Assembly: GCA_965199495.1 (NCBI GenBank)
Contig: CBDASK010000003.1
Span: 2,144,001-2,208,000, forward strand
Source: Abditibacterium sp.
GTDB taxonomy: Bacteria > Armatimonadota > Abditibacteriia > Abditibacteriales > Abditibacteriaceae
DNA length: 64,000 nucleotides
Direction of reading: 5' to 3'
The notes under the pieces were generated by a model. The model did not search any database and had not been told where the DNA came from. It was given only the letters and a program-made list of their open reading frames with translations. How positions within the stretch are numbered: position 1 is the stretch's first letter; each line of letters starts with the position of its first letter. Positions 1-63,315 of this stretch are shown one piece after another. Position numbers and translations under genes: made by a program.

Positions 1-687
1 TTGGTTTACGCGTGGCTGGGATTGGTGCCGATTATCGCCTGTTTGGAAGACGACCACCGCAGCCTGAGCGCGATGAGCCGTGCGTGGACTTTGATGAAAG
101 GCAGTTGGGGCCGCGTGCTGGGCCTTTCGACGCTTTTATCCATCGCGATTACGGCAGTTTCGGGCATCGTTATCGGCACATTGGCGCTGTTGGGAGAAAG
201 TCTTAACGTGTTTAGTTCCAATTCTTCTGTTTCGTCAATAATCGGCTTGGGTCTCGCTTACATGGGGTTTTTCGGCGCGTTCTTTTTGTTCTGGAACCCG
301 ATTCAAAACCTGATTTTGGCCGTGCTTTACCTCGATTTGCGCGTTCGCAACGAGGCGCTCGATTTGGAGTGGAGTTCCTACGCCTCGGCTCCCCTACCCG
401 TCGAAAACGCCGAATCCAACGCCGTTCAAGTGGCGCCGACTGCGCCCGAATTGGTGCAACAACTTGCGGCTAATCCGCTCGATATTAACGATTCGCCCGC
501 GTCCTTGTCTGCCGCACCGCCAATGAGACCGCCCGCTCCGACGCCAGCAAATATCGAAATCGAACCGGTTGTGATTGCCAAACCGCCCGCGCCGCAAGCA
601 GCCACTGCGCCCGAACCGTTCGATTTTTCGAGTTCGTTTAGCGCGGGAGCTGCGCCGGATGTCGAGGGAAAAGACGCATTGTCGTGA
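1..687 (+). CDS. Membrane protein (5'-truncated by window edge) of the MoxR/DUF4350/DUF4129 operon, with Pro/Ala-rich C-terminal tail
   Basis: Hydrophobic helices, A-x-x-R-A-W-x-L-x-x-G-x-W-x-R and YLDLRVRNEALDLE motifs typical of this operon's membrane protein; upstream of DUF4129/DUF4350/moxR. Confidence 0.7.
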   Translation: MVYAWLGLVPIIACLEDDHRSLSAMSRAWTLMKGSWGRVLGLSTLLSIAITAVSGIVIGTLALLGESLNVFSSNSSVSSIIGLGLAYMGFFGAFFLFWNPIQNLILAVLYLDLRVRNEALDLEWSSYASAPLPVENAESNAVQVAPTAPELVQQLAANPLDINDSPASLSAAPPMRPPAPTPANIEIEPVVIAKPPAPQAATAPEPFDFSSSFSAGAAPDVEGKDALS

Positions 688-700
688 TTTAATTTTCCTT

Positions 701-790
701 CGACAACAGCGGGGCTGACGCACCCTTCCAATCGGCGTGCTTGGGAAGAAATCCGCCGATTGGAAGGGTGCGTCAGCCCCGCTGTTGTCG
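701..790. repeat. REP-like inverted repeat, TTCCAATC/GATTGGAA family
   Basis: 37-bp perfect arms 701-737 and 754-790 (CGACAACAGCGGGGCTGACGCACCCTTCCAATCGGCG). Confidence 0.9.
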
Positions 791-855
791 CCTCTATGCT
801 GTATAGAAAGAGAGTCACGCCCCAACGAGTTTTGAGAAAATTCTCTCACACGATC

Positions 856-2043: not shown

Positions 2044-3290
2044 AGAAATCCAACAAAAATCGCTGGCTGCTGGGCGGCTTGCTCGTCGTGCTTTTGCTGG
2101 TCGCGGGCGTGGTATCGCGGGCGCGACAAAACGCGTTCGTCTTGTTGCCCGCCGCCGCTTTCGCCGACGCCAAACCGACGGGCGGCAAAGGTTTGGCGCT
2201 CTTGCTCAATCGCATCGGCTACCAATCGAAAGTGCAGGACGCGCCGCTCCAAACGATGCCGCCGGACGCGCGCGTCTGGCTGATGCTCGGCCCCGACAAC
2301 AGCTTTACCGCGCGCGAATCGAAACTTTTGCTCGATTGGGTCAAGGCGGGCGGCACGCTGGTTTATAGCGTGGGGCGCGGCGATTTGTTCGAGATGCAGC
2401 TCAACCCGTATGCCGACAAAAAGCCCGCCGCGACGGGCGTCGAAAAGTTGGCCGACGAACTGAAAGTCAGCTCAACCGCGCCCGATTTCGGGGGCGCGGG
2501 CGTCGCCAGCGATTTGCCCGAACTGCCAAAAATCGCGCTCGACGTGCCCTCGAACGCGCGCGCGGGCGTGAAAAACGCGGTCGGCCCCGGCGGCAACTTC
2601 GGAGTCAAACGCAGCCACGTCGAAGTCGCGAGCGCGCCGGGCGGAACAATCGCGCGTATGCCTTTGGGCAAAGGTCAAGTGTGGGCCGTGCCCAACGCGT
2701 GGATGTTCACCAATTACGGCCTGTCCAAACCCGATAACGCCGTTTTGGTCACCAACCTTTTGCGCGCGCAATCGCCGCCGCTCGGCGAGCGCAAAGTCGT
2801 CTATTTTGACGAGCGCAACCACGATGAATCGGAGCGCCCGCCCGTGCCCGACACGCTTATTAACCGCTTGAAACAGCCGCCGATTTCGACGGCGCTATGG
2901 CAACTTTTTTTCGCCGGAGTTTTGCTATGGATTTTCGCCGCGCGTCGTTTGGGCGCGGCGGTTCCGCTCCCGACGCGTGGCCCGGTGACGCGTGCCTCGC
3001 AGTTCGCGCAAGCGATGGGCGCGCTGTTTTCCAAGAACTCGCGCCCCGCCGCCGCCGCCGACATCATCGGCCAAGATTTCCGCAAACGTTTGGGCGCGCG
3101 CGTCGGGCTTTCGCCGGGGGAAAACGACATGGTTTTGGCCCGCCGCGCGCACGAATTGAGCGGCGTGCCCATTGATGTCGTGGATCGTCTGCTGCTGCAA
3201 ACGCGCACGCCCGCGACCAGCGAAGCACAAGCGTTGCGCGACGCGCAGGAAATGGACGCGGTTTTGAAACGTTTGGAGGGCAAAGTTTAG
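2040..3290 (+). CDS. DUF4350 domain-containing protein
   Basis: N-terminal TM, PTGGKGLALLL, LLDWVKAGGTLV, FTNYGL..PDNA, VYFDE and RRLG motifs; ATGA overlap with the previous stop. Confidence 0.8.
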   Translation: MKKSNKNRWLLGGLLVVLLLVAGVVSRARQNAFVLLPAAAFADAKPTGGKGLALLLNRIGYQSKVQDAPLQTMPPDARVWLMLGPDNSFTARESKLLLDWVKAGGTLVYSVGRGDLFEMQLNPYADKKPAATGVEKLADELKVSSTAPDFGGAGVASDLPELPKIALDVPSNARAGVKNAVGPGGNFGVKRSHVEVASAPGGTIARMPLGKGQVWAVPNAWMFTNYGLSKPDNAVLVTNLLRAQSPPLGERKVVYFDERNHDESERPPVPDTLINRLKQPPISTALWQLFFAGVLLWIFAARRLGAAVPLPTRGPVTRASQFAQAMGALFSKNSRPAAAADIIGQDFRKRLGARVGLSPGENDMVLARRAHELSGVPIDVVDRLLLQTRTPATSEAQALRDAQEMDAVLKRLEGKV

Positions 3291-3488: not shown

Positions 3489-4517
3489 ATGTCCCAAAAC
3501 CAATCGCCCCAAATCGAACCCGCAACCCCAGCCACGCCGACCGAAGTCGAAGTGAATCGCGGCACCACGACGCCTGTGCAAGAATTGGTCGCGGCGGTGC
3601 GCGGCGAAGTGCGTAAAGCCGTCGTCGGTCAAGACGATGTCATCGGCCAATTTCTCGTTGCCCTACTCGTCGGTGGCCACGTTTTGCTCGAAGGCGTGCC
3701 CGGCGTGGCTAAGACTTTGACCGCCAAATCGTTGGCGCAAAGCATCAACGCCGAATTCAAACGCATCCAATTCACGCCCGACTTGATGCCGTCCGACGTG
3801 GTCGGAACCAACGTTTTCAACGTCAAAACGCAGGATTTCAATCTCAAAGAAGGCCCGGTTTTTACCGACATTCTGCTGGCCGACGAAATCAATCGCACAC
3901 CGCCCAAAACGCAGGCGTCGCTGCTCGAAGCGATGCAGGAACGCAGCGTCACCATTGACGGCACTTCGCGCCCACTATCGCCGCTATTTATCGTTTTCGC
4001 CACGCAAAATCCCCTCGATTACGAAGGCACCTATCCTCTGCCCGAAGCGCAGGTTGACCGATTTTTGATCAAAGTTTTAATGGATTATCCCAGCGCCGAA
4101 CAAGAGATGCAACTGCTGGATCGCGTGCATCGCGGCTTCGATGCGCACGAGCTTTCGACAGTTGGACTTCGCGGCGTGACGAGCAAGGAAACGATTTTGC
4201 GCGCGCGTCGAGCGGTGCAACAAGTCACTGTCAGCGAGGGCATGGTGCGCTATATTTATCAGATTATCGCGCGCACGCGCAACATGGCGAACCTGACTTT
4301 GGGCGCCTCGCCACGCGCGGGCATCGCTCTGCTCGAATGTTCCAAGGCGCTGGCCGCGATGAACGGGCGCGATTACATCATTCCCGAAGATGTGAAGGCA
4401 ATGGCGCCGCCGGTTTTGCGTCACCGTTTGCTGTTGCGCGCCGAAAGCGAAATGGAAGGTCTGCGCGCCGACGACGTAATTCGCTCGCTCTTGGGCGCCG
4501 TCGAAGTCCCGCGTTGA
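3489..4517 (+). CDS. moxR: MoxR-family AAA+ ATPase
   Basis: GHVLLEGVPGVAKT, RIQFTPDLMPSD, LLADEINR, ATQNP..EGTYPLPEAQ.DRF. Confidence 0.95.
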   Translation: MSQNQSPQIEPATPATPTEVEVNRGTTTPVQELVAAVRGEVRKAVVGQDDVIGQFLVALLVGGHVLLEGVPGVAKTLTAKSLAQSINAEFKRIQFTPDLMPSDVVGTNVFNVKTQDFNLKEGPVFTDILLADEINRTPPKTQASLLEAMQERSVTIDGTSRPLSPLFIVFATQNPLDYEGTYPLPEAQVDRFLIKVLMDYPSAEQEMQLLDRVHRGFDAHELSTVGLRGVTSKETILRARRAVQQVTVSEGMVRYIYQIIARTRNMANLTLGASPRAGIALLECSKALAAMNGRDYIIPEDVKAMAPPVLRHRLLLRAESEMEGLRADDVIRSLLGAVEVPR

Positions 4518-5499: not shown

Positions 5500-5583
5500 A
5501 AATAGCGGAAGCTGCGTTTGCGGCGCGGTGGCTGCTCTTGAGTTAAACGCAATCGCGTCCGGCGACAAACGCAACGTATTTCT

Positions 5584-6459
5584 TCACCCGTCTAACCGCG
5601 CAATTAACTCGTTCAAATCGTTCAACAAAACATCCGGCTTTTCCTCGCCCTGCGCCGCGCGCGCGGTTTCCCAACCGACAACGCCCGTCGCGACCCACAC
5701 GCTGGCGATGCCCGCGCGATGCGCGCACGCGATGTCGGTATCGAGGCGGTCGCCGACCATCACGACTTCGCTGAATTGCAAACCGGCATCGGCGACGATT
5801 TGCTGCAACATCGTCGGCTGCGGTTTGCCCATTGTCGCGGGCGCTTGGCCGCTCGCGGTTTCGATGGCGGCGACGACGGCGCCCGCGCCCGGTAATACGC
5901 CGTTTTCGACGGGGAAAGTCGCGTCGCGGTTGGTCGCCACCCAAAGCGCGCCGCTCAAAATATAGGTTTGTGCGCGTGCCAAGTCGGCGTAACAAAACTC
6001 GCGCGCCAGACCAGCCACGACGGCGATGACATCTTCCAAATCGCCGCTATTGCGCTGCGTGACTTCAAAACCCGCGCTTTCCAGTTGCGCGCGAAGTCCG
6101 GCCTCGCCGACGATGAAAATGCGCCCGCCTCCAGGGAACTTGGCGCGCAAATACGAAACGGCGATGGTCGTCGAAGTTACGATGTCGGCGGGCGCAGCAC
6201 GAATGCCCAGCTTGCCCAGTTTGTCGGCGAAGTATTGCGGCGTGCGCGTCGAATTGTTGGACGCAAACATCGCGCGGCAACCGCGCGCCTGCAATGCAGC
6301 CACGGCGGCGGCGGCGCCGGGAATGACGCTGTCACCGCGCCAGATTACGCCGTCCAAATCGAAGACCCAAATTTTAAATTGCGAAAGATTCACTGCGCCT
6401 AAATTTAGCACATTTTCCAAAGGCGGAATCGAAAATTGCAATTGTAGAAAGCGCGCCAA
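5584..6459 (-). CDS. HAD-superfamily subfamily IIA (NagD-like) hydrolase; true start probably near 6393
   Basis: FDLDGVIW, SNNS, ATNRD, GKP, MVGDRLDTDI motifs. Confidence 0.9.
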   Translation of the reverse strand: MARFLQLQFSIPPLENVLNLGAVNLSQFKIWVFDLDGVIWRGDSVIPGAAAAVAALQARGCRAMFASNNSTRTPQYFADKLGKLGIRAAPADIVTSTTIAVSYLRAKFPGGGRIFIVGEAGLRAQLESAGFEVTQRNSGDLEDVIAVVAGLAREFCYADLARAQTYILSGALWVATNRDATFPVENGVLPGAGAVVAAIETASGQAPATMGKPQPTMLQQIVADAGLQFSEVVMVGDRLDTDIACAHRAGIASVWVATGVVGWETARAAQGEEKPDVLLNDLNELIARLDG

Positions 6460-6476: not shown

Positions 6477-8954
6477 ATGTCTTTTGCTCCTGAGACGATT
6501 AATCCTGAGATGAACCACGCGCCCGATTCGGCGCAGTTGAGCGCCGAACTCGCGGCCTCAGAAGATCGCTATCGCACGCTGTTTTTGCAGGAACAACGGC
6601 GCGCACGCCATTTGTCGCTGATCAACGAGGTGCAAAAATGCGCGCTCGCCACGCGCGAAATTCGGGCATTTTTGCCGCAGGTCACGCGCGCGATTTCTTC
6701 GCATTTTCCCGACTGCGATGTCGCGTTTTATATGTCGCACGCGCTTAGTCTGGGCTTGACTCAGGCGAACGAGGAAAACGTTCAGGAGGGCGCCGACCGC
6801 AGTTGGCGCGTAGACAGTTGGGACGACGGTGACGATAATTTTCAACTCACGGTCGTCGCCAGCTATGGCAAATTTGGCTTGCGTCCGCCCGTGGGCGCGC
6901 ATCTCTCGCTGCGCGATGTCGGCGATGACGGCGAAATTTCCGCACCCGGCGCGCGTTCGGCGCTGACGGTGCCGGTTGCGCTCGAAGGCGAAACTATTGG
7001 TCTGATTTCGGTGCAAAGTCCTGAATCCGATGTGCTCGATGCGCGCGACGTGGCTGCTCTGCACACGGCGGGCGCCATCATCGCCGCGCACGTCCAAAAC
7101 TCGCGTTTGTTTCGCCACATGAACGAGATCAACGCCTTCAACCAGAGTCTGCTCGATTCGATGTTGCACTCGATGATGGTGGTGGATGACAAAGGTTGGA
7201 TCCAGTTCGTCAACGAGCGCTTGCTTTCGATGTCGGGCAAATCGCGCGCGGAGTTGCGCTATCAACCGCTCGAAACGATTTTCGGCGAAAACCCGGCCTA
7301 CCATCACAATCTGCGTGGTGCGATTCAGCGTGTTTTAGAAACCGGCGAAGGACAGGAGTTGACTGACGTTCACATCTGGACGCCCAAAGGCCCGCAGATT
7401 TTCGATTTGCGTATGTTTCGCGTTTTCTTTCGCGGCCAGGCCGAAACCGCGATTCTATTGATTAATTTAACTGACCGTTGGCGTCAGACCAATCAATTGC
7501 AAATGACCCACGAAATCGGGCGATTATTTCAGCAATCGCTCGACATCGAACGCGTTTTAAGCACGGTCTTGACCTGCATCACCGCCGGTTCGGCGCTGGG
7601 ATTTAATCGGGCTTTCGTTTTTTTATTGGACGAAAGCGGCACGCGCCTCGAAGGGCGCATGGCGTTGGGGCCGAGTTCTCCCGAAGAAGCCTCGCGCATT
7701 TGGGGCGAAATCTCGCAGCGCGATTTATCCCTCGAAGAAATTTTGGCCGATAGCGAAAAAGTCGCCTCGCAAATGACGCCGCTTCAGGAGCGCACAGCGC
7801 AACTGGCGATTCGGTTGGACAATCCGTTTATCCCCAATTTGCAGCGCGCGCTCGAAACCAAAAGCGCGCTGCAACTAACGCACTCCGAGCTAATTTCGCC
7901 CGACTGCCATAGCGATGAAAGTGGCGATTCGCGCGACTGTCACGAAGCGCGTCAGTTCGCGGCTTTGCTTGATGCCTACGACGTGGCTATCGCGCCGCTC
8001 ATCGCCAAAGACCGCTTTATCGGCGTAGTTTTCGCCGATAATCTCTATTCCAGCGCGCCCATCGAACCCGAAGACGTTCAACTGCTCGACACCCTCGCGC
8101 AACAGGCGGCGCTCACCATTGACAACGCGCTGACTTATCAGGCTTTGCAGGACGCGCAGCGCGAATTGGTGAGTGCCGAACGCTTGGTCGCCGTCGGCGA
8201 AATGGCGGCGCGCGTGTCGCACGAAATCCGCAATCCCCTCGCCACCGTCGGCGGTTTCGCCAATTCGATTTTGAAAAAGCCGACCGACGAAAAATCCGTG
8301 GTGCGCAAATCGCGCGTCATCGTCGCCGAAATCGCGCGATTGGAAGAATTATTGACCGATTTATTGGATATGGCGCGCACTCGCCCGCTCAAACGCGAGC
8401 CGGAATCCATCAACGAAATTCTCGAACATTCGTTGCTGTTGGCGCAGGCCGACATCAAAGCGTATAACGTGCAGGTCGAACGCGAATTCGCCCCCGATTT
8501 GCCGATGACCTGCGTTGACCGCGCCCGCCTGTTGCAAGCGTTTCTCAATACCATCCGCAACGGCGCGCAGGCGATGACCGATGGCGGCGTTTTGCGCATC
8601 GCCACGCGTTTAATCGAACATGCGGACGCAATGAATGAGGCGGGCGAACCCACCGAATCCATCGAAATCCAGATCGGCGATAGCGGCCACGGCATCCCGC
8701 AACGCGCGCTCGATCAGGTTTTCGACCCGTTTTTCTCGACCAAAGTTTCCGGTTCGGGATTGGGATTGCCCGTGACTCAGCGCATCATCAAAGATCACGG
8801 TGGCTACGTCGTAGTCGCCAGTCGTGAAGGCGAAGGCACGACCTTTATTTTTACGCTCCCAATTGAACGCGTGGAATTAACCGAAGAGGGCACGCCGATT
8901 TGCGCACAGGCCGTCTGTGAAGAGGCTAACGATTCAGAAATTTCGCTCGAATAA
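6477..8954 (+). CDS. Cytoplasmic GAF-PAS-GAF sensor histidine kinase
   Basis: H-box VSHEIRNPL, N-box NTIRNGAQAM, DSGHGI, FDPFFSTK, GSGLGL; GAF-like segments (LTVPV...IGLI; GFNRAF...IAPL...GVVFADN). Confidence 0.9.
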   Translation: MSFAPETINPEMNHAPDSAQLSAELAASEDRYRTLFLQEQRRARHLSLINEVQKCALATREIRAFLPQVTRAISSHFPDCDVAFYMSHALSLGLTQANEENVQEGADRSWRVDSWDDGDDNFQLTVVASYGKFGLRPPVGAHLSLRDVGDDGEISAPGARSALTVPVALEGETIGLISVQSPESDVLDARDVAALHTAGAIIAAHVQNSRLFRHMNEINAFNQSLLDSMLHSMMVVDDKGWIQFVNERLLSMSGKSRAELRYQPLETIFGENPAYHHNLRGAIQRVLETGEGQELTDVHIWTPKGPQIFDLRMFRVFFRGQAETAILLINLTDRWRQTNQLQMTHEIGRLFQQSLDIERVLSTVLTCITAGSALGFNRAFVFLLDESGTRLEGRMALGPSSPEEASRIWGEISQRDLSLEEILADSEKVASQMTPLQERTAQLAIRLDNPFIPNLQRALETKSALQLTHSELISPDCHSDESGDSRDCHEARQFAALLDAYDVAIAPLIAKDRFIGVVFADNLYSSAPIEPEDVQLLDTLAQQAALTIDNALTYQALQDAQRELVSAERLVAVGEMAARVSHEIRNPLATVGGFANSILKKPTDEKSVVRKSRVIVAEIARLEELLTDLLDMARTRPLKREPESINEILEHSLLLAQADIKAYNVQVEREFAPDLPMTCVDRARLLQAFLNTIRNGAQAMTDGGVLRIATRLIEHADAMNEAGEPTESIEIQIGDSGHGIPQRALDQVFDPFFSTKVSGSGLGLPVTQRIIKDHGGYVVVASREGEGTTFIFTLPIERVELTEEGTPICAQAVCEEANDSEISLE

Positions 8955-18069: not shown

Positions 18070-18329
18070 ATGAATAACATTTCCACAAACACAGCCACGG
18101 CGCACAAATTAACGAGAAGAATGTTGGCGAAACGAAGAAAACGTTTCTTATTTTGGTTATCGCCAAAAATCCCGAAGTCGAAGGGTTGATGAAAACCTTG
18201 CTCAAGGCTTCGGGATTCGAGTGCCAGTTCGCGCCGCAGGGCGGATTGGGTTTATCTATGTTCGAGAATAATCCCGCTGATCTGGTTCTGAATTCGACCG
18301 AATTGCTGAGGTCGGTTGAGCGAACTTAA
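18070..18329 (+). pseudogene. Truncated, frameshifted receiver-domain remnant
   Basis: A frame not in the ORF track reads ..FLILVIAKNPEVEGLMKTLLKASGFECQFAPQGGLGLSMFENNPADLVLNS.. (N-terminal half of a REC fold); the ATG at 18070 is in another frame. Confidence 0.55.
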
Positions 18330-23382: not shown

Positions 23383-23469
23383 TTCTCGATTATAGGGCAG
23401 GGCGTGGCTGCATTGGCTTAGGAAAACAGGGGTGAACTTTGGCGTCCAAGAAGCATCTAATTTCTCGCT

Positions 23470-35027: not shown

Positions 35028-35121
35028 TTGGTGCAAAGTCTAACGATTGGGCGGGCGCCGTGGCTGCATCGGCGCGCGGGCGAATTGGATAATGCTGTTT
35101 CGGTTGGAGAAGATCGCTGAG

Positions 35122-43543: not shown

Positions 43544-43642
43544 GTTCGCGCGCAGTGTGCAGCCACGGCGCGCGCTCATCCAACACTTGAGTGCGCGAAT
43601 AACGGCACGCGCTATCGAATTGACATGGTTTACTCGAAAAAA

Positions 43643-53468: not shown

Positions 53469-53471
53469 AAC

Positions 53472-56410: not shown

Positions 56411-56693
56411 TTGAGAAAATGAAGTATTCCACTTTCGACCAGCCACGCCGACCCATCGCGCCCGCACAACTCTTCCCTGTCAACACGCAAAAACTTATCC
56501 ATATCAGGGAAAACCCCTGCCGAAAAATAAATTTTTACCAGTGGCCCGCGTTATCTCACAAAAGAAAATCAAAGGGTCTCGTGCCATTTGCAGCGGCAGC
56601 ACCGACACTCAATTTCATAATCGAGTGCCCGCCGTAGCGTCGTGGCGCTTTAAATTAGAAAGAGTGTGCGCAGGGGAAAAGCGGAACAGATGG

Positions 56694-56787: not shown

Positions 56788-58281
56788 ATGAACAACTCGT
56801 CCGTTATTCCGTTTCCCCAGCGCAACGCCAACAACAACCGGCCCGAATCGCGCGAGAAACTGACGCCCCAATCGCTCGAAGCCGAGCAATCCACTCTGGG
56901 CGCCATGCTCATGGAGCGCGACGCCGTCGCGCGCGCCGTCGAAATCCTCACCGTTGACGATTTCTACCGCGAACTGCACAAAAAAATCTTCAAATCGGTT
57001 CTCAAACTCTTCGACAAGGGCGAACCGATTGACATCGTCACCATCGCCGAAGATTTGCGCCGCAACGGAATGTTGGAAGAAGTCGGCGGCAGCGAATATC
57101 TGTCGGCCCTCATCGAAGCCTGTCCGAGTTCGGTCAACGTCGAGGCTTATGCCAAAGTCGTTTCGGAAAAGAGCGTTTTGCGCCAACTCTTGCGCGCCGC
57201 CGACCAAATTTCGGGCATGGTCTACGCCGAAGGCGACGAAGTGGATAGTTTGGTTGACCAATCGGAAAAGTTGATTTTCAACATTAATCAGACGAAATTA
57301 AAAACTGGTTTTTCTCCAATTAAACAGTTGTTAATGACGGCTTACGATCAAATCGAAAAGCAATTTCAACATAAAGGCGAAGCCACCGGTATTTCAACAG
57401 GTTTTAACGAGTTAGATGATATAACTTCGGGATTGCAGCCGACCGATTTTATAATTGTGGCTGCTCGGCCTTCGATGGGGAAAACGGCGTTATGTTTAAA
57501 TATCGCGCATCATATCGCTTTAAAAGAGAATCAACCTGTTGCTATTTTTTCTCTGGAGATGTCGAAAGAACAGTTGGTGCAACGATTAATTTGTAGCGAA
57601 GCCAGTATTAAATCGCAGGATTTGAGGCGTGGACGCGTGCAAGATGGCGACTGGCATCGCATCACCAACGCGGTCAACCGCTTGTATCAGGCGCCAATGT
57701 TCATTGACGATCAGCCGGGGCAAGGCACCTTTGAGATGCGCGCCAAGGCGCGTCGCCTCATGGCAGAACATGGTCAACTCGGACTTATCGTCGTAGATTA
57801 TTTGCAGCTCGCCCACTCGTCGGGCAAGTCGGAAAACCGCGTGCAAGAAATCTCGGAAATCGCGCGCGCCTTTAAATCAATGGCACGCGAGTTGAAGTGT
57901 CCGCTCATCGCTCTCTCGCAGCTTTCGCGTGCCGTCGAGCAACGCGAAGACAAGCGTCCGATGCTCTCGGATTTGAGAGAAAGCGGATCGATTGAGGCCG
58001 AAGCGGATTTGGTCGCGTTCATTTATCGAGCGAGTTATTACAAGCGCAAGGCGCTGCACAAAAGCTCGGACGAGGGCAAGGGCGGCAAAAAGTCGTATTC
58101 GTCGCAAAGTTCCGCGCCCGTCAGCGACGATGATCCAGAATTTGATCCCGACGAGGGCAAAGCCGAAATCATCATCGGTAAGCACCGCAACGGGCCAGTT
58201 GGAACAATTAAGCTGGGCTTTCAACCGGAATTCGCCAGATTTACCAATTTGGCGCAAGATGATTACGGCGGCGGATATTAG
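56788..58281 (+). CDS. dnaB: Replicative DNA helicase
   Basis: PQSLEAEQS.LG, TGF.ELD, AARPSMGKT, FSLEM, VDYLQL, LSQLSR.VEQR.DKRP.LSDLRESGSIE, KHRNGP.G. Confidence 0.98.
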   Translation: MNNSSVIPFPQRNANNNRPESREKLTPQSLEAEQSTLGAMLMERDAVARAVEILTVDDFYRELHKKIFKSVLKLFDKGEPIDIVTIAEDLRRNGMLEEVGGSEYLSALIEACPSSVNVEAYAKVVSEKSVLRQLLRAADQISGMVYAEGDEVDSLVDQSEKLIFNINQTKLKTGFSPIKQLLMTAYDQIEKQFQHKGEATGISTGFNELDDITSGLQPTDFIIVAARPSMGKTALCLNIAHHIALKENQPVAIFSLEMSKEQLVQRLICSEASIKSQDLRRGRVQDGDWHRITNAVNRLYQAPMFIDDQPGQGTFEMRAKARRLMAEHGQLGLIVVDYLQLAHSSGKSENRVQEISEIARAFKSMARELKCPLIALSQLSRAVEQREDKRPMLSDLRESGSIEAEADLVAFIYRASYYKRKALHKSSDEGKGGKKSYSSQSSAPVSDDDPEFDPDEGKAEIIIGKHRNGPVGTIKLGFQPEFARFTNLAQDDYGGGY

Positions 58282-58285
58282 TCGC

Positions 58286-58400: not shown

Positions 58401-58404
58401 ATTT

Positions 58405-59937
58405 TCAATTCGCGCTCTCCAAAATGACTTCGTGCCCAAACGCCGCTTCCATTAAATCCACGCCACTACGCGCGGTCACCCACATTTCGACTTCGGCGTT
58501 ACGCGCGACGAGCGTGAGCGTCAACTGTTTTTTGTCCCAACTCGCCTGCACATCGCGCACGACGCCACTGCGCCCGCGCTCCAAATATTCCGAGATGCGC
58601 AGCAACGCGGCTAACACTTGCAAACGGTTTTCGTCGCCTTTTTCCAACAGCGATTCCCATTCGCCCGCCATCGGCGTGCCCTTGCGATGATAACGCGTCA
58701 AAAGTGCGATAATCGCGGTTTCGCGCGGTGAAAATCCGGGCAAACCGTTGCTGATAATCAGCATTTGCGAATGCTTGTGATGATCGTTGTAGCGAATCGC
58801 CGTGCCGATGTCATGTAATGTCGCGGCGGCCATCAGCCACTCGCGTTCGAGCGCGCCGTAGCCATGAAGCGGTTGCAATTGGTCGAACAATCGGCCCGAC
58901 AAAAATTTGACGTGCGCGGCGTGGCTGGCTTGATAGTCGAAGAATCGCGCCAGATTTAGCACGCTAAATCCGCGCAAGTCGGGCGCGACCGGAGTGGGCA
59001 TATCGCGCCAGAACTCCTCGAAGAATAAACCTTCGCGCAGGCCAGCGCCCGAAATCGTCAGTTCATCTTGGTCTAACCGCTCCAAAATTTCGCGGATGAC
59101 GAGGGCACCCGGCAGAATAATATCGGCGCGGTCGCTCGATAATCCCGAAATGACACGGCGCTTTTCTAAGGGCAACTCGCACAGTTCACCGATAGTTTCG
59201 TCCAATGAATCCGCCGATAAATGAAAGCCGCCGATGTTTTGCAGGGGAAACTTCTGGCGTGCCGCCCCGATTTTGGCGAGGTTGCGAATCGTGCCGCCCA
59301 ATCCAACGATTTGTTCCCTGTCGCCTGCCAACCAAGCCACGCCGTCGAGTTGGCGATTGATTTCGGTGTTTATCGCTTTCAATTCGGCTTTACTAATCGG
59401 ATCGCTTTTGACAAAACGTTCGGTCAAAGCCAGCGCGCCCAGCGTGAGGGCTTGGCCGCGCACGAAACGGCGCCCGCGCACCTGCGAAACCTGCGCGCTG
59501 CCGCCGCCGATGTCAACCACGACGCCGTTTTCCAACTGCACCGCGCCCAGCGCGCCCAAAACGCCGTAACGCGCTTCTTCGTCGCCGTCCAGAATTTGGA
59601 GCGAAAGCCCGATTTCGCTTTCGACTTGTTCCAAAAACTGCGCGCCGTTGGCTGCCTCGCGCACCGCGCTGGTCGCCGTGGCTATGATGTGGTCAACCTT
59701 CAAACTCTCGCAAAACTGCTTGAATAATCGCAGCGTAATTAAGCCGCGCTGAATCGCATCGGGCGCCAATCCGCCCTGCGTCATACCCTCGCGTAGGCGC
59801 ACGATTTCGCGGATTTCGTCTTCCAGATGATAGCTCCAACCCGCGATAGAATTCATCACGATCACGCGCGCGCTGTTGGAACCTAAGTCAATTATCGCCG
59901 TGCGACGCGGCGCATCGGCGGCAGAACGAATAAGCAT
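58405..59937 (-). CDS. ppx: Exopolyphosphatase Ppx/GppA with C-terminal HD domain
   Basis: IIDLGSNS, ATSAVREA.NG, G.EEA, DIGGGS, GLGGT.R, RADII.PG, GLREG, LHDIG....HHKHS. Confidence 0.94.
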   Translation of the reverse strand: MLIRSAADAPRRTAIIDLGSNSARVIVMNSIAGWSYHLEDEIREIVRLREGMTQGGLAPDAIQRGLITLRLFKQFCESLKVDHIIATATSAVREAANGAQFLEQVESEIGLSLQILDGDEEARYGVLGALGAVQLENGVVVDIGGGSAQVSQVRGRRFVRGQALTLGALALTERFVKSDPISKAELKAINTEINRQLDGVAWLAGDREQIVGLGGTIRNLAKIGAARQKFPLQNIGGFHLSADSLDETIGELCELPLEKRRVISGLSSDRADIILPGALVIREILERLDQDELTISGAGLREGLFFEEFWRDMPTPVAPDLRGFSVLNLARFFDYQASHAAHVKFLSGRLFDQLQPLHGYGALEREWLMAAATLHDIGTAIRYNDHHKHSQMLIISNGLPGFSPRETAIIALLTRYHRKGTPMAGEWESLLEKGDENRLQVLAALLRISEYLERGRSGVVRDVQASWDKKQLTLTLVARNAEVEMWVTARSGVDLMEAAFGHEVILESAN

Positions 59938-60048: not shown

Positions 60049-61047
60049 ATGAAATCAGCCTCGGCTTTCAGCCTGTTTTTCACCGGAGTCACGTTGTGCC
60101 TTTCGTCCCTTGCCAGTGCGCAGAACGGCGGACAAAACGTGACGCCCGAAACGGCACCGCCGGTTTTGGTGCCAATTGCGCCCGCGAAACGGCGGCTAAC
60201 CGCGATCAAAATTCGCAATGTGCCTTCGGCTTACCTCGCTTGGCAACTCGATCCCGCGCATAACCCGCCGCCGGTCGGCGTGCAATTGGCGCAATTGAAG
60301 CGCGACGGAACGCCCGATGCGCAGCGGCTCGATTTAATGGCGCAGTGGATTCAAATTGACGACGAAACTCTGGCGCGCGCACTGCCCGCATGGAACGCGC
60401 TGGGCGCCTCGAATTGGACGCGCATCGCGACCTATAAAGAACGCGTTGCGCTCGAAACCTTGAACGCTCTGGACGTAATCGCGCCGGTCACGCAGCGAAT
60501 TTTCGCGCGGGACAAACAGCCCAGCTTTTTGTCTTATTTGCCGTTGCGTCCGATTGTCGAGTCTGTCGCTCCGATGCAGCCACCGGCACCGGCGCCCGCC
60601 ATCAAATCGCAGCCGAAAATGGATTCGCTGTTCGCCGATCCACCTTATATTCCCAATTACGCCGAGATGATGCCGATGTTGCCTTATATGGCGCCAATGC
60701 CGAATATGGGAAGTGCGCCCCCGCTTTCTTCGATGACGCCCGACGTGTTATCCGAATTAAATGTCAATCCGTATTTGCGCCTGAATCCGGGCGGCATTGA
60801 CGAAATGCAGGGCGCCAAATTTGGGTTGACGCCCGCCATCAACGCCGACAAAACAATCGCGCTGACTTTGCATCGTTTAAGCGCGTTTCCGGGAGCGGAT
60901 GCCACGATTCAAATGGGCGAGAATGAAACGGCGATATTCTCGTTGCCCGATGTGACCTCGCCCGCCCCAACCAAAATACGCCGCACGTTTCTGTTGGTCA
61001 CACCGCGCCTAATGCCGCCCGCCCCGACCGATTTGCCCACGCCATGA
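60049..61047 (+). CDS. Secreted hypothetical protein with secretin-like fragments
   Basis: Signal peptide; IKIRNVP...LA..L; G....LTPAINAD.TI.L.L, T.....NET, TFLLVTPRL. Confidence 0.55.
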   Translation: MKSASAFSLFFTGVTLCLSSLASAQNGGQNVTPETAPPVLVPIAPAKRRLTAIKIRNVPSAYLAWQLDPAHNPPPVGVQLAQLKRDGTPDAQRLDLMAQWIQIDDETLARALPAWNALGASNWTRIATYKERVALETLNALDVIAPVTQRIFARDKQPSFLSYLPLRPIVESVAPMQPPAPAPAIKSQPKMDSLFADPPYIPNYAEMMPMLPYMAPMPNMGSAPPLSSMTPDVLSELNVNPYLRLNPGGIDEMQGAKFGLTPAINADKTIALTLHRLSAFPGADATIQMGENETAIFSLPDVTSPAPTKIRRTFLLVTPRLMPPAPTDLPTP

Positions 61048-61142
61048 ACGAAACCGCGTCCGCCAGTTCTCCGAGCCAAATTCGAGGAAATCGCGGCGTG
61101 TGTGGCGGCGATAGTGTCAAACTCTGAGGCGATTTAGCTCCG

Positions 61143-62420
61143 ATGAAAATTCTCGTTTTAGGAAGCGGCGGGCGCGAACACGCTCTCGTCTGGAAAATTA
61201 AGCAGTCTCCGCTCGTAACGCGGCTCGTTTGCTCGCCCGGCAACGCGGGCATCGCGCAAATTTGCGAATGTTTGAGCGGCGAACCGGTGGATGTCGCGCA
61301 TAAAATTGACGCCGATTTGGTGATTATCGGCCCCGATGGAATGCTCGCCGATGGCGTCGCCGATAGACTTCGCGCCGCCGATATTCCTGTTGTTGGGCCG
61401 GGACAAAGCGGCGCGCGCTTAGAAAGCTCTAAGATTTTCACCAAGAAACTGCTGCAAAAATATAAGGTTCCGACCGCCAAATTCGCCGCTTTTGAAAGCG
61501 CTGACGAAGCGAAAAATTATCTGCAAAGCCAGCCCGACGGCCCGATTGTCGTGAAGGCCGACGGTTTGGCCGTTGGCAAAGGCGTCGTCGTGGCTGCTAA
61601 TCGCGCGCAGGCGTTGGCGGGCGTGGACGAAGTCACCCTCGTCGCCGGTTCGACGACGCTGGGCGACAAAGGCCGCATCGTCATCGAGGAAATGATGAGT
61701 GGCCCGGAAATCTCGTTTTTCGCGTTGACCGACGGCGAAACGCTGTTGCCTTTAATCGAGGCGCGCGATTACAAACGCGCTTACGATGGCGATAGGGGGC
61801 CAAACACGGGCGGCATGGGCTGCTTTTCGCCGGTTCCCGAATGGACGCCGGAGTTGAAGGAACAGGTTCTCGAAACGATTTTGAAACCGACGTTGGCCGG
61901 ACTTCAATCCGAAAAAATTGAATATCGCGGCGTTTTGTATTGTGGCTTGATGCTAACCGAAGATGGCCCGAAAGTCGTCGAGTATAACGCGCGTTTTGGC
62001 GACCCGGAATGCCAGTTGATTATGGCGCGTTTGAAAGACGACATCGTGCCGATTTTCATGGCGTGCGCGGGCATTGATGTCGGTATGCGCGACCGCAAAA
62101 TGAGCGATTTCAAACTGCACTGGCGCGATGAGGCGGCGGTTTTGGTGGTGATGGCGGCCTCAGGTTATCCCGGCGCGCCGCGCAAGGGCGATCCGATTTT
62201 GGGATTGAATCAAGGCATGACCGACGAGAAGATGATTTTTCACGCGGGCACCAAGTTAGTAGACGCTCAATTCGTGACGAATGGCGGGCGCGTGTTGGGC
62301 GTAACAGCCCTTGGCGCCGATGCAGCCACGGCGCGCGCGCGCGCGTATGAAGCTGTCGAAACGATTACGTTCGATAGCGCGCAATATCGCACGGACATCG
62401 CGGCGCAACCGGTGCAATAG
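61143..62420 (+). CDS. purD: Phosphoribosylamine-glycine ligase
   Basis: MKILVLGSGGREHAL, PGNAG, VVKADGLA.GKGV, DYKR..DGD.GPNTGGMG, EYNARFGDPE, TNGGRVL. Confidence 0.98.
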   Translation: MKILVLGSGGREHALVWKIKQSPLVTRLVCSPGNAGIAQICECLSGEPVDVAHKIDADLVIIGPDGMLADGVADRLRAADIPVVGPGQSGARLESSKIFTKKLLQKYKVPTAKFAAFESADEAKNYLQSQPDGPIVVKADGLAVGKGVVVAANRAQALAGVDEVTLVAGSTTLGDKGRIVIEEMMSGPEISFFALTDGETLLPLIEARDYKRAYDGDRGPNTGGMGCFSPVPEWTPELKEQVLETILKPTLAGLQSEKIEYRGVLYCGLMLTEDGPKVVEYNARFGDPECQLIMARLKDDIVPIFMACAGIDVGMRDRKMSDFKLHWRDEAAVLVVMAASGYPGAPRKGDPILGLNQGMTDEKMIFHAGTKLVDAQFVTNGGRVLGVTALGADAATARARAYEAVETITFDSAQYRTDIAAQPVQ

Positions 62421-62592
62421 GCTCGTTTGGAGCGTCTGCACGATTAGCCATTGGCCTAAACGGTGAAATTTTATAGCCTTACGGCGCGTTTTTCGCTACA
62501 ATTGTTTGCGGTGATTCATTTCGCTGGCTCCAAATTTTACAAACCGCCGTCTTAAACAGGGCGAAATGGTGGCGCCGGTTTTCCTTTTTCTC

Positions 62593-63315
62593 ATGCCTCT
62601 TGCCGAAGTTCATGTCACGCTCAAGCCCGCGCTTTTCGATGCGCAGGGCGAGACGATCAAAAAAGCTCTGCACCAGTTGGGGCATACCGACGTGCAAAGC
62701 GTGCGCATCGGCAAGCTCATCACCGTCGAACTTGCGGGCGACGAGGGCGCGGCGTTGCAGGGACAGCTCGATTTGATGTGTCGCCAACTTTTGGCCAATC
62801 CCGTCATCGAAGATTACGAAGTCACGATGGACGGCGCCGATCCCATCGCCCTCGCCGATGCGACGGCGATTCCGCTTTCGCCCGGCACGCCCAACACCGA
62901 TAACAGCGTCGCGACCGATTTGCCCGGCGAGGCGCATTTGCAGCCCGCGCACGTCGAGGGCGTTGTGACTTCGCGTCAACCTGTCAGCAACAGCGCGGCA
63001 GCCACGGCGGCGGCGGGCTTGGAAGCGGTTTCGACGCCCGGCGGAGTGACCGACCCGTTTCAGGTGGACTTTCGCTCTTACGAAGCGATGCCGACCGAGG
63101 CCAAACAGTCGTTGCGCATTCTGGCGCTGCGCAAATATGGCAACTGGATCGAAAGCCAACTGCGCGCGCGCAATGCCAGTTGGATTTTGTGTCTGGGCCA
63201 AAGCGTCCTCGAATACGGTAACGACATCGAAACCTCGCCCACCGATCAGCATCTGCTCCAAATGGGCATCGAACATGACCGCGTGCCGTGGGTTTTCAAT
63301 CGTCCGCACGCGTAA
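62593..63315 (+). CDS. purS: PurS fused to a low-complexity linker and an extra C-terminal domain
   Basis: First ~80 aa: V.VTLKP..FDAQG.TI..AL..LG...V.SVRIGK......MC.QLLANPVIEDY; about 160 additional residues follow in frame. Confidence 0.9.
   Translation: MPLAEVHVTLKPALFDAQGETIKKALHQLGHTDVQSVRIGKLITVELAGDEGAALQGQLDLMCRQLLANPVIEDYEVTMDGADPIALADATAIPLSPGTPNTDNSVATDLPGEAHLQPAHVEGVVTSRQPVSNSAAATAAAGLEAVSTPGGVTDPFQVDFRSYEAMPTEAKQSLRILALRKYGNWIESQLRARNASWILCLGQSVLEYGNDIETSPTDQHLLQMGIEHDRVPWVFNRPHA

What the first reader, a model, noticed from the sequence alone, without database searches (positions are those of the whole stretch)
598..63005. Strand-symmetric, highly over-represented motif (C)GTGGCTGC(W): candidate DNA uptake sequence or genome-wide binding signal
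Seen: 34 exact GTGGCTGC copies, 17 on each strand, about one per 1.9 kb. Of these, 26 extend to CGTGGCTGC and most are followed by A/T; dozens of one-mismatch variants (CGTGGCTA, CGTGGCTGG, CGTGGCTGA) also occur. A zero-order estimate at an assumed ~57% GC gives about 3 for the 8-mer and about 1 for the 9-mer. The motif is read in several frames (VAA, AAT, QPR at 30026/36506, RSH at 2611, AWL at 37355), forces GCT/GCA codons where GCG/GCC dominate, and also occurs in non-coding DNA (23404, 35060, 43559), so it looks like a DNA-level signal. It is absent from the R-M cassette and the AT-rich gene at 51.0-51.5 kb and sparse across the parS zone. Established: Neisseria DUS and Pasteurellaceae USS are non-palindromic 9-12-mers of similar density without strand bias, whereas Chi and KOPS are strand-polarised and HIP1 is palindromic. 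Inference: an uptake-sequence-like system or nucleoid-protein site, to my knowledge not described for this lineage.
Basis: partly seen in the sequence, partly recalled or inferred. Interest (0 to 1): 0.85.

Follow-up and report, generated by a model that had tools for sequence, protein, structure and literature searches.

The report
Hyper-abundant oriented DNA signal in Abditibacterium
One small clade of soil bacteria from a little-studied phylum has written the short word CGTGGCTG about 3,000 times into its chromosome, even inside essential genes, much as the DNA uptake sequences of Neisseria and Haemophilus are spread, but with a spacing rule on each strand that a Neisseria-type sample does not show.

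Summary
The window has 35 GTGGCTGC (17+/18-) and 41 CGTGGCTG; shuffles give about 2. The chromosome has 3,083 CGTGGCTG (13x an order-3 Markov model) and 690 CGCCGTGGCTGC against 3 expected. Enrichment survives synonymous-codon shuffling (2,776 against 253), occurs in all six frames and in uncalled DNA, and shows no replichore polarity.

It is depleted on the two small contigs and in recombinase-bearing islands. It is confined to three related genomes of 41 searched. G000 and G011 read CGnCGTGGCTGct; G004 reads TAGGACGTGGCTGGTGTC. Sites arise by point substitutions, partly synonymous, and are kept about twice as well as other 8-mers.

New here: same-orientation copies avoid each other out to about 1 kb (0.32 of expectation at 100-500 bp), while opposite-orientation copies do not. 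Seventeen other frequent 8-mers and a Neisseria-type DUS sample lack this pattern.

ComEC, ComEA, DprA and pilus genes are present. No ComP, RecC or AddAB was found.

Best reading (0.42): a transformation-linked self-DNA signal spread by molecular drive but read one strand at a time. Rivals are a Chi-like repair signal without RecBCD/AddAB, or another DNA-level process. Nothing was tested at the bench.

The parts
11..18 (+). CGTGGCTG core copy
598..605 (-). GTGGCTGC copy without the 5' C
2612..2619 (-). CGTGGCTG core copy
3529..3536 (-). CGTGGCTG core copy
5528..5535 (+). GTGGCTGC copy without the 5' C
6012..6019 (-). CGTGGCTG core copy
6297..6304 (-). CGTGGCTG core copy
7049..7056 (+). CGTGGCTG core copy
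10315..10322 (-). GTGGCTGC copy without the 5' C
11637..11644 (+). GTGGCTGC copy without the 5' C (in ParA gene)
12391..12398 (-). CGTGGCTG core copy (in ParB gene)
16127..16134 (+). GTGGCTGC copy without the 5' C
17958..17965 (+). CGTGGCTG core copy
18092..18099 (-). CGTGGCTG core copy
18522..18529 (+). CGTGGCTG core copy
20500..20507 (+). GTGGCTGC copy without the 5' C
23403..23410 (+). CGTGGCTG core copy, between called genes
24858..24865 (-). CGTGGCTG core copy
25801..25808 (+). CGTGGCTG core copy
28710..28717 (-). CGTGGCTG core copy
30025..30032 (+). CGTGGCTG core copy
32002..32009 (-). CGTGGCTG core copy
32321..32328 (+). CGTGGCTG core copy
34484..34491 (-). CGTGGCTG core copy
35059..35066 (+). 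CGTGGCTG core copy, between called genes
35861..35868 (-). CGTGGCTG core copy
36505..36512 (+). CGTGGCTG core copy
37356..37363 (-). CGTGGCTG core copy
38797..38804 (+). CGTGGCTG core copy
39872..39879 (-). CGTGGCTG core copy
39990..39997 (-). CGTGGCTG core copy
42445..42452 (+). CGTGGCTG core copy
43053..43060 (-). CGTGGCTG core copy
43560..43567 (-). CGTGGCTG core copy
45707..45714 (+). CGTGGCTG core copy with G004-type flanks, shared with G004 (in MutS gene)
47159..47166 (-). CGTGGCTG core copy in MutS gene, shared with G011 only
47871..47878 (+). CGTGGCTG core copy in MutS gene (read GCA GCC ACG on the coding strand); 9 of 9 aligned non-carrier genomes have other codons here
47993..48000 (-). 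CGTGGCTG core copy in MutS gene, shared with G011 only
48986..48993 (-). CGTGGCTG core copy
50094..50101 (-). GTGGCTGC copy without the 5' C
53838..53845 (+). CGTGGCTG core copy, shared with G011
53933..53940 (-). CGTGGCTG core copy, shared with G011
55638..55645 (+). CGTGGCTG core copy, shared with G011
56440..56447 (-). CGTGGCTG core copy
57457..57464 (+). GTGGCTGC copy without the 5' C (in DnaB gene)
58920..58927 (+). CGTGGCTG core copy
60576..60583 (-). GTGGCTGC copy without the 5' C
61589..61596 (+). CGTGGCTG core copy (in PurD gene)
62323..62330 (-). CGTGGCTG core copy (in PurD gene)
62999..63006 (-). CGTGGCTG core copy

Best explanation
CGTGGCTG is a 'self-DNA' signal of one Abditibacterium clade. 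The extended forms are CGnCGTGGCTGct in G000 and G011, and TAGGACGTGGCTGGTGTC in G004. It works like a DNA uptake-enhancing sequence in its population genetics. DNA that carries it is favoured during natural transformation and recombination between clade members. New copies made by point mutation therefore spread by molecular drive, even inside essential genes, while foreign DNA lacks it.

Unlike Neisseria DUS, it seems to be read in an orientation-specific way, one strand at a time. A reader would act where DNA is single-stranded or is tracked in one direction: passage through ComEC, or protection and RecA/DprA loading in the cytoplasm. It would not be a duplex-binding pilin. A copy then adds nothing when a same-oriented copy lies within about 1 kb, so such copies are not maintained.

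Shown here: the enrichment, its independence from coding, its clade limits and dialects, its conservation, its depletion in mobile DNA, the same-strand exclusion, and the presence of competence genes. Inferred: the link to transformation, the drive, and the single-strand or directional reading.
For: Enrichment and coding control
- 3,083 copies against 234 expected; CGCCGTGGCTGC 690 against 3.15.
- Synonymous-codon shuffles give 152+101 against 1,548+1,228 observed. All six frames are enriched 3 to 22 times, and 304 copies lie in uncalled DNA.
- No replichore polarity in 24 bins.
- Core one-mismatch words stand at 0.0 to 2.6 times expectation against 53 times for the perfect word. A steep drop is also reported for H. 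influenzae and N. gonorrhoeae (PMC1939737, passages).

Clade limits and dialects
- 3 of 41 genomes are enriched: G000 1,783, G011 1,411 and G004 972, against reversed-word controls of 135-146. They are each other's nearest kin.
- The core is shared and the flanks differ.

Origin and conservation of sites
- Sites arise by substitution. 0 of 37 aligned non-carrier rows carry the word. At window 47871 GCA GCC ACG stands where the non-carriers read other codons, in five of nine GCC GCG ACG.
- 111 of 140 G011 sites and 111 of 167 G000 sites are shared, against 36% for any 8 columns.

Depletion in mobile DNA
- Small contigs carry 0.08-0.09 per kb against 0.65 on the chromosome. The longest motif-free gaps hold serine recombinases and transposase-like genes.

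Spacing
- Mean spacing is 1,529 bp, close to the 1,150-1,500 nt reported for Neisseria DUS (PMC2397512, passages).
- At 100-500 bp there are 129 direct pairs against 403 expected and 381 inverted against 403. 17 of 17 other frequent 8-mers give 1.0-1.55 for direct pairs. G011 and G004 repeat the pattern.

Other
- G004 also carries the word in intergenic hairpin pairs: 67 of 98 paired copies lie outside ORFs.
- Present: ComEC with three domains, ComEA, DprA, prepilin peptidase, secretins and 48 prepilin-type ORFs.
Against: - No member of this phylum is known to me to be transformable (recalled). The paper listings and searches turned up nothing on competence or such a motif in this lineage.
- No ComP_DUS domain was found (best E 0.998).
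- Competence genes are common in bacteria that lack uptake sequences, so their presence is weak evidence.
- In G000 only about 10% of copies lie outside called genes and terminator-side DNA is not preferred: 0.40 per kb in convergent spacers against 0.72 in genes. A preprint puts about half of DUS/USS in predicted terminators (10.1101/2025.10.24.684340, passages).
- The single-strand or directional reading is inferred from spacing alone. I found no directional footprint. GC-skew asymmetry around sites is mostly matched by letter-permuted control words, and divergence from G011 is symmetric.
- The three carriers are one clade, so every gene-content correlation rests on a single evolutionary event.
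Confidence: 0.42

Rival explanations
1. A Chi-like break-repair signal that has nothing to do with uptake. An end-resection machine tracking along DNA meets the word on one strand and switches from degradation to recombination. Random two-ended breaks (desiccation, radiation) would call for both orientations everywhere. The first properly oriented copy shields those behind it, which gives same-strand exclusion. Copies could spread by biased gene conversion between genome copies.
For: - Same-orientation exclusion occurs without any cross-orientation effect, in both the +- and the -+ order. This is what first-encounter logic predicts.
- The core is a G/T-rich 8-mer.
- G004's form contains a word one letter away from the E. 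coli Chi octamer (recalled).
- Carriers differ from their congeners in end-processing genes. An AddAB-like operon is present in 10 of 10 non-carrier congeners and was not found in 3 of 3 carriers. A 1,421-aa Cas4/RecB-like nuclease plus SF1B helicase occurs within the genus only in carriers.
Against: - No replichore polarity, whereas the Chi sites I know of are co-oriented with replication (recalled).
- No RecC in 13 of 13 genomes of the genus and no AddAB-like genes in carriers.
- The candidate nuclease-helicase is cut down to its C-terminal half and split into three ORFs in G011, which still keeps the motif.
- G016 has a 45% homologue and no strong motif in the 143 kb sampled.
- The 13-18 nt consensus and the roughly 200-fold enrichment exceed any Chi I know (recalled).
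- No directional composition or divergence footprint.
Confidence: 0.2
2. A classical DUS/USS: a surface receptor (a minor pilin or similar) binds the duplex word in either orientation. The strand-specific spacing is then a side effect, for instance selection against deletions between close direct repeats of the 13-18 nt word.
For: - All DUS-like features listed under the best explanation apply here too.
- The Neisseria-type sample also shows depletion of direct pairs only, below 100 bp: 10 observed against 47 expected, while inverted pairs at 60-100 bp stand at 0.88.
- 48 prepilin-type ORFs offer many candidate receptors.
Against: - In the DUS sample, direct and inverted pairs at 100-1000 bp are alike (286 against 310). 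In G000 they are 461 against 915.
- Duplex reading predicts that a second copy in either orientation is redundant, yet inverted pairs stand at 0.85-1.26 of expectation.
- No ComP_DUS match.
Confidence: 0.15
3. Another DNA-level process creates or retains the word. Candidates are sequence-directed mismatch or very-short-patch repair tied to a methyltransferase (as proposed for cyanobacterial HIP1; recalled), or an abundant DNA-binding protein whose sites are under selection.
For: - The enrichment is at the DNA level and specific to one clade.
- Another genome of the family (G017) has its own hyper-abundant word, a 22-24 bp palindrome. This family therefore produces such words more than once.
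Against: - The likeliest deamination precursor, CGCGGCTG, stands at only 40-139 per Mb in non-carriers, against a gain of about 600 per Mb.
- No Vsr above cut-off.
- The word is not palindromic.
- A repair bias acting inside the cell does not by itself explain the 7-fold depletion on the resident small contigs.
- No promoter-side preference: 0.21 per kb in divergent spacers.
Confidence: 0.15
4. An artefact of protein sequence and codon or codon-pair usage, or the spread of a small mobile repeat (REP/MITE).
For: - Two frames dominate: xxC GTG GCT GCx (Val-Ala-Ala) and GCA GCC ACG (Ala-Ala-Thr).
- In G004 a third of copies lie in a hairpin repeat that starts with GTAG, as REP elements do (recalled).
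Against: - Codon shuffles that keep each gene's protein and codon usage give 253 against 2,776 observed, and all six frames and uncalled DNA are enriched.
- Sequence information fades within 5 nt of the core in G000.
- Sites align without insertions to other codons in relatives, except for a few gapped rows at two sites.
- Single copies in G004 lie in ORFs in 138 of 168 cases.
Confidence: 0.03

Closest known systems
DNA uptake sequences of Neisseriaceae (DUS, with dialects; receptor ComP)
   Same: - A non-palindromic short word at about one per 1.5 kb, equal on both strands and without replichore polarity.
- Found in all reading frames.
- A sharp fall from the perfect word to one-mismatch words.
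- Depleted in acquired DNA.
- A conserved core with flanks that differ between lineages.
- Inverted pairs in intergenic hairpins (in G004).
   Basis: PMC3630211 (abstract), PMC2397512 and PMC1939737 (passages).
   Different: - No ComP_DUS domain.
- A different phylum, with no known competence.
- About 90% of copies lie in genes in G000.
- Same-orientation copies exclude each other to about 1 kb while inverted copies do not. A Neisseria-type DUS sample shows equal, mild depletion of both.
Uptake signal sequences of Pasteurellaceae (USS)
   Same: A core of 8-9 nt with weaker flanks, thousands of copies, fairly even spacing, and copies inside genes that shape encoded tripeptides. Basis: PMC2817400 (abstract), PMC7811141 (passages).
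   Different: No AT-rich flanking tracts here. Close pairs in G000 lie mostly inside genes: 70 of 86 inverted pairs within 40 bp have both ends in called genes. I could not test orientation-specific spacing in a USS genome.
Chi sites (RecBCD/AddAB)
   Same: A G/T-rich 8-mer that is over-represented. The orientation-specific behaviour fits a reader that tracks along one strand.
   Different: No replichore polarity. No RecC and no AddAB-like genes in carriers. The consensus is longer and the enrichment far higher.
HIP1 of cyanobacteria and REP/REPIN elements
   Same: Hyper-abundant short words that are specific to a lineage. G004 embeds the word in a GTAG-led hairpin repeat.
   Different: HIP1 is a palindrome and REPs are intergenic hairpins moved as units (both recalled). 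Here the G000 word is asymmetric, about 90% genic, and made by point substitution.

Membership tests
DUS/USS (DNA uptake-enhancing sequences) | Preferential uptake or transformation by DNA that carries the word | not testable with these tools
   Needs a bench assay. No paper on competence in this lineage appeared in the listings.
DUS/USS (DNA uptake-enhancing sequences) | Hyper-abundant non-palindromic word, equal on both strands, no replichore polarity | tested here: met
   3,083 copies against 234 expected; 1,525+/1,558-; flat across 24 bins.
DUS/USS (DNA uptake-enhancing sequences) | Enrichment independent of coding; steep fall to one-mismatch forms | tested here: met
   Codon shuffles give 253 against 2,776 observed. 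Core one-mismatch words stand at 0.0-2.6 times expectation against 53 times for the perfect word.
DUS/USS (DNA uptake-enhancing sequences) | Rare in recently acquired DNA | tested here: met
   Small contigs 0.08-0.09 per kb against 0.65 on the chromosome. The longest gaps hold recombinase and transposase-like genes.
DUS/USS (DNA uptake-enhancing sequences) | Cognate receptor (ComP-type minor pilin in Neisseriaceae) | tested here: not met
   PF16732: best E 0.998, below the cut-off. Other pilin-like ORFs exist (48) but none is tied to the word.
DUS/USS (DNA uptake-enhancing sequences) | Competence machinery encoded | tested here: met
   ComEC (DUF4131 + Competence + Lactamase_B), ComEA (SLBB + HHH_3), DprA, prepilin peptidase and secretins.
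DUS/USS (DNA uptake-enhancing sequences) | Many copies as inverted pairs in terminators | tested here: inconclusive
   G000: 86 inverted pairs within 40 bp, 70 of them inside called genes; no 3'-side preference. G004: 49 hairpin pairs per 400 kb, with 67 of 98 paired copies outside ORFs.
DUS/USS (DNA uptake-enhancing sequences) | Action independent of orientation (a second nearby copy is redundant in either orientation) | tested here: not met
   At 100-1000 bp, G000 has 461 direct and 915 inverted pairs. The DUS sample has 286 and 310.
Chi | Read by RecBCD or AddAB | tested here: not met
   RecC family found in 0 of 13 genomes of the genus. The AddA-like protein is present in 10 of 10 non-carriers; carriers give only weak hits to an unrelated helicase of about 800 aa.
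Chi | Co-oriented with replication | tested here: not met
   The + share stays between about 44% and 60% in all 24 bins.
KOPS / other polar architecture motifs | Strong strand skew that flips at origin and terminus | tested here: not met
REP/REPIN | Intergenic hairpin units that move as copies | tested here: not met
   G000: no sequence information beyond 5 nt from the core, about 90% genic, sites aligned to other codons in relatives. The G004 hairpin element may be of this kind.
HIP1-type palindromes | Palindromic word | tested here: not met
   CGTGGCTG is not its own reverse complement. Only 77 of 3,082 neighbour pairs are inverted within 30 bp.

The most novel reading that the evidence does not exclude
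A new kind of oriented genomic self-signal. A strand-specific word is read by an unknown machine that tracks along DNA, in a lineage that lacks both RecBCD and AddAB. Each copy 'covers' about 1 kb of its own strand and makes further copies there useless. It would then be either the first Chi equivalent for a non-RecBCD/AddAB system, or the first uptake-type signal read after uptake on single-stranded DNA. Either way it would also be the first such system in Abditibacteriota.
Probability: 0.3. Interest if true: 0.9.

Novelty: new variant of a known kind. Interest (0 to 1): 0.78.

Why it matters
To my knowledge (recalled), uptake-type signals are established in only two proteobacterial families. 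A third, unrelated case in a barely cultured phylum would show that sequence-biased genetic exchange evolved more than once. It would also point to natural transformation in dry-soil and surface bacteria.

The strand-specific exclusion rule is a simple, testable signature. It separates readers that track one strand from readers that bind the duplex, and it can be applied to any genome.

The clade is young. Two dialects exist, and sites are gained at different places in sister genomes. The build-up of such a signal can therefore be followed step by step.

Tried and rejected
- Deamination origin (CGCGGCTG to CGTGGCTG). The precursor stands at only 40-139 per Mb in non-carriers against a gain of about 600 per Mb, so I rejected it as the main source.
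- 'Dialects in every congener'. Samples of 180-200 kb from G006, G009, G010 and G012 show no comparable 8-mer. Rejected for those four; the other six non-carrier congeners were not sampled for words of their own.
- Second strong words. In G000, GTAGAGAC belongs to a separate REPIN-like repeat of about 100 bp. In G004, the extra words vanish once GTGGCT is masked.
- Link between the 1,421-aa nuclease-helicase and hyper-abundant words. G017, with a 42% homologue, does have its own word, but it is a palindrome of another style. G016, with a 45% homologue, has none in 143 kb. G011's copy is truncated. I keep this only as a weak lead.
- Apparent strand polarity of the G017 word in the listing. My own count on G017:C2 100-200 kb shows mixed strands. 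It was an effect of how the rows were listed.
- Directional footprints. GC skew is higher 3' of the word (differences 0.019, 0.006 and 0.004 in three bins), but 60 letter-permuted control words give 0.009, 0.004 and 0.000, and a gradient within genes explains the shared sign. Identity to G011 is symmetric, 0.848 against 0.842. Not conclusive.
- Exclusion tied to genes rather than to distance. Direct pairs are depleted both within one gene and across genes: direct-to-inverted 50/181 and 16/44 at 40-300 bp. The rule is therefore mainly one of distance.
- Rfam scan of the window: no match.
- A same-orientation test on E. coli Chi was not run, because it would have cost about 25 calls for modest power.
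- Both were rewritten and rerun.

Full report
**What is there**

The window is G000:C3:2144001-2208000 of a 4.81-Mb assembly. The assembly has a 4.72-Mb chromosome (55.7% G+C) and contigs of 24.7 and 64.6 kb. The window holds 35 GTGGCTGC (17+/18-), 26 CGTGGCTGC and 41 CGTGGCTG. Dinucleotide shuffles give means of 1.8, 0.7 and 1.9 and never more than 6.

Genome-wide, the most over-represented 8-mer under an order-3 Markov model is CGTGGCTG: 3,083 against 234, z = 186. CGTGGCTGC stands at 1,780 against 77, and CGCCGTGGCTGC at 690 against 3.15 under an order-2 model. A logo of all 3,083 sites reads C-G-n-CGTGGCTG-c-t. Information vanishes beyond five bases on either side, so the word is not a piece of a longer repeat.

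MutS of the window is 91% identical to that of a MAG titled Abditibacteriales, and 76-80% identical to Abditibacterium MAGs.

**It is a DNA-level signal**

I called genes with a crude codon-usage caller of my own: 3,341 genes covering 82% of the chromosome. Of the 3,083 copies, 2,776 lie in called genes (1,548 sense, 1,228 antisense) and 304 in uncalled DNA. Twenty shuffles of synonymous codons within each gene keep protein sequence and codon usage. They give 152 + 101 copies, with maxima of 182 and 115. All six frames exceed their shuffles 3 to 22 times. Uncalled DNA carries 0.36 copies per kb against 0.72 in genes.

Convergent, tandem and divergent spacers carry 0.40, 0.31 and 0.21 per kb, and copies are spread evenly along genes.

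Across 24 chromosome bins the two orientations stay near parity. The word is therefore not Chi-like or KOPS-like in polarity.

**Where it occurs**

Of 41 genomes of the phylum searched, including G000, three are enriched for CGTGGCTGC:

| Genome | Copies | Reversed-word control |
|---|---|---|
| G000 | 1,783 | 141 |
| G011 | 1,411 | 146 |
| G004 | 972 | 135 |

The other 38, nine congeners among them, are at control level. A tenth congener, G003, is too. G011 (85-90% nucleotide identity) and G004 (77-87%) are the nearest relatives, while other congeners are 67-78% identical. The carriers are thus one clade.

Samples of 180-200 kb from four non-carrier congeners show no comparable word.

G000 and G011 share the flanks. 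G004 reads T-A-G-G-A-CGTGGCTG-G-T-G-T-C, in single copies as well as in pairs. That is a dialect pattern, as described for Neisseriaceae DUS (PMC3630211, abstract).

**How sites arise and persist**

I examined 13 sites in window 45,000-63,800. Eight could be aligned to relatives and five lay outside the fetched loci. None of the 37 aligned rows from non-carriers has the word. 5 of 7 G011 rows and 1 of 7 G004 rows do. Most rows align without gaps; a few at sites 45707 and 48986 carry small gaps.

At 47871 the MutS coding strand reads GCA GCC ACG. Five of the nine non-carriers read GCC GCG ACG there, the same Ala-Ala-Thr, and the other four read further variants. The frame follows from the ORF ends. 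Two synonymous changes therefore made the word at this site.

Over about 214 kb aligned with G011, 111 of 140 G011 sites and 111 of 167 G000 sites are shared, against 36% for any eight columns. With G004 the figures are 44 of 87 and 44 of 170, against 27%. Unshared G000 sites differ from G004 at 1 to 6 positions. The word is thus maintained, and it was gained at different places in sister lineages.

Single-base variants of the core are at or below expectation, while flank variants stay enriched. Their per-Mb counts are close to, or up to about two-fold below, those of non-carriers. The likeliest deamination precursor is far too rare in non-carriers to be the source.

**Depletion in mobile DNA**

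The two small contigs carry 2 and 6 copies (0.08 and 0.09 per kb) against 0.65 on the chromosome. An earlier, unchecked note of this scan reads one piece of this assembly as a phage.

The longest motif-free gaps cluster at 1.12-1.26 Mb. Several have 48-50% G+C. The ORFs I scanned there include two large serine recombinases, transposase-like HTH proteins, DUF3854 and an AAA_25 protein. Six of the 14 have no Pfam match.

**The spacing rule**

Overall spacing is slightly more even than random. CV is 0.93 and the median is 1,198 bp against 1,060 for an exponential. Split by orientation, the picture sharpens. Same-orientation pairs, as observed over expected:

| Distance (bp) | Observed / expected |
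|---|---|
| 0-30 | 0.07 |
| 30-60 | 0.13 |
| 60-100 | 0.15 |
| 100-200 | 0.29 |
| 200-300 | 0.29 |
| 300-500 | 0.35 |
| 500-750 | 0.54 |
| 750-1,000 | 0.78 |
| beyond 1,500 | about 1 |

Opposite-orientation pairs stay at 0.77-1.26 at all distances above 60 bp, in both the +- and the -+ order. They show an excess only within 30 bp (77 against 30 expected), mostly with 4-7 nt between the arms.

At 100-500 bp there are 129 direct and 381 inverted pairs (binomial P = 7e-30). The 9-mer is stricter still, at 0.18. All 17 other frequent non-palindromic 8-mers tested give 1.00-1.55 for direct pairs.

Depletion holds within and across genes. It is repeated in G011 (direct 0.16-0.48 at 100-750 bp, inverted 0.80-1.13). 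It is also seen in G004 (direct 0.23-0.40), where inverted pairs at 300-1,000 bp are mildly depleted too (0.45-0.68).

As a control I fetched metagenome contigs that hold inverted pairs of the Neisseria DUS. They yielded 766 kb of non-redundant sequence with 788 10-mer DUS. At 100-1,000 bp, direct and inverted pairs are alike (286 and 310) and both mildly depleted. Only below 100 bp are direct pairs specifically rare. In G000 the same range gives 461 and 915. I found no paper on orientation-specific spacing of DUS, USS or Chi.

**Genes that could read it**

- Present in G000: a three-domain ComEC, ComEA (SLBB + HHH_3), DprA, a prepilin peptidase followed by four prepilin-type genes, eight secretin matches, and 48 ORFs with the N-terminal methylation motif, many of the DUF1559 kind.
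- No ComP_DUS domain and no Vsr above cut-off.
- No RecC in any of the 13 genomes of the genus.
- An AddAB-like pair was defined in G009: a UvrD-type helicase of 1,079 aa next to a PD-(D/E)XK protein of 1,072 aa, with best NCBIfam matches to AddA and AddB models but below their cut-offs. The helicase is found in all 10 non-carrier congeners and in none of the three carriers.
- A 1,421-aa protein with an N-terminal Cas4/RecB-like nuclease and a C-terminal SF1B helicase lies next to a topoisomerase IB gene. Within the genus it occurs only in the carriers. The G004 copy is 85% identical. In G011 only residues from about 708 onward remain, split into three ORFs. Homologues of 45% and 42% occur in G016 and G017 of other genera.
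- These correlations rest on one clade and so on one evolutionary event, and the G011 copy argues against this enzyme being required.

**Reading**

The size of the enrichment, its independence from coding, its conservation, its absence from mobile DNA, its clade-specific dialects and its mean spacing near 1.5 kb match DUS/USS better than any other known system (PMC1939737, PMC2397512 and PMC7811141, passages). A drive through biased exchange of DNA explains a roughly 200-fold excess more easily than selection on each site does.

The duplex-receptor model, however, predicts that a nearby second copy is redundant in either orientation. That is what the DUS sample shows and what this genome does not. 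Independence of the two orientations, in both orders, fits a reader that sees one strand or tracks in one direction, so that the first copy met makes later same-strand copies useless.

My best reading (0.42) is therefore a transformation-linked self-signal read at a single-strand or tracking step. A Chi-like repair signal independent of uptake (0.20) explains the spacing equally well. It lacks polarity, lacks the known enzymes, and would need a new reader. A classical duplex DUS with a secondary cause for the spacing (0.15) and other DNA-level processes (0.15) remain open. A coding or mobile-repeat artefact is all but excluded (0.03).

**Limits**

- The gene calls are my own and crude.
- Relatives were sampled at 143-400 kb each.
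- G011 is a fragmented assembly.
- The DUS control is a mixed sample chosen for inverted pairs.
- No bench test of uptake, binding or methylation is possible here.

Noticed in passing
window 53369-53470: A palindromic repeat of about 100 bp. It begins with GTAGAGAC followed by a short hairpin, then the mirror image ending in GTCTCTAC, so it looks like a REPIN. Dozens of copies on both strands occur in G000, G004 and G011. The 8-mer occurs 294 times against 24 expected.
   Followed up: partly
window 48307-48454 and 58290-58398: Two further intergenic stretches with repeated copies elsewhere in G000. Several copies match on both strands.
   Followed up: no
G017 (another genus of the family), e.g. 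L244-L253 and L264-L268: This genome has its own hyper-abundant word, a 22-24 bp palindrome GTACGGTCGAATTCGACCGTAC centred on GAATTC. The 10-mer half-site occurs 2,567 times in 3.6 Mb against 5 for the reversed control. The other 26 genomes of the family have 0-8 copies.
   Followed up: partly
G004:C8:1000001-1400000 (L151-L170): 49 hairpin elements, all in the order CAGCCACG...CGTGGCTG and most with 25 nt between the cores. The arms extend to about 22-29 nt and include GTAGGA. 67 of 98 paired copies lie outside ORFs.
   Followed up: partly
G009 L238:4065-10544 versus G000: The AddA-like helicase of an AddAB-like operon was found in 10 of 10 non-carrier congeners and in 0 of 3 motif carriers. 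No RecC was found anywhere in the genus.
   Followed up: yes
G000:C3:4111365-4115630 (L237:7365-11630, - strand): A 1,421-aa fusion of a Cas4/RecB-like nuclease with an SF1B helicase (best PADLOC matches MkoA and DpdJ, helicase part only), next to a topoisomerase IB gene. Within the genus it occurs only in motif carriers. It is truncated in G011.
   Followed up: partly
whole chromosome of G000: Alternating CG runs are extremely common for a 55.7% G+C genome: GCGCGCGC occurs 7,552 times. This is in line with its own 7-mers and so reflects composition.
   Followed up: no
window 51630-56354: An XPB/ERCC3-type helicase (568 aa) lies beside a 960-aa protein with Helicase_C_3, Tfb2-like and WYL domains.
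   Followed up: no
window 43698-45543 and 21493-23382: An MjaI-family restriction enzyme with an N4/N6 methylase that carries a SNase-like tail, and a separate AIPR-family protein.
   Followed up: no
G000:C3:1119000-1257000: A zone of about 140 kb with the longest motif-free gaps. Several stretches have 48-50% G+C. It holds two large serine recombinases, transposase-like proteins, DUF3854, an AAA_25 protein and very large ORFs without Pfam matches. It is probably one or more integrated elements.
   Followed up: partly
G000:C3:2736877-2740598 (L272:11877-15598): A fused HSDR_N + N6 methylase + Eco57I-like protein followed by a specificity subunit, next to a Tad-type secretin cluster.
   Followed up: no
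output: The row listing of a pattern search showed only + strand matches over 230 kb of G017:C2. My own count on that stretch shows both strands. Such listings should not be read as strand maps.
   Followed up: yes
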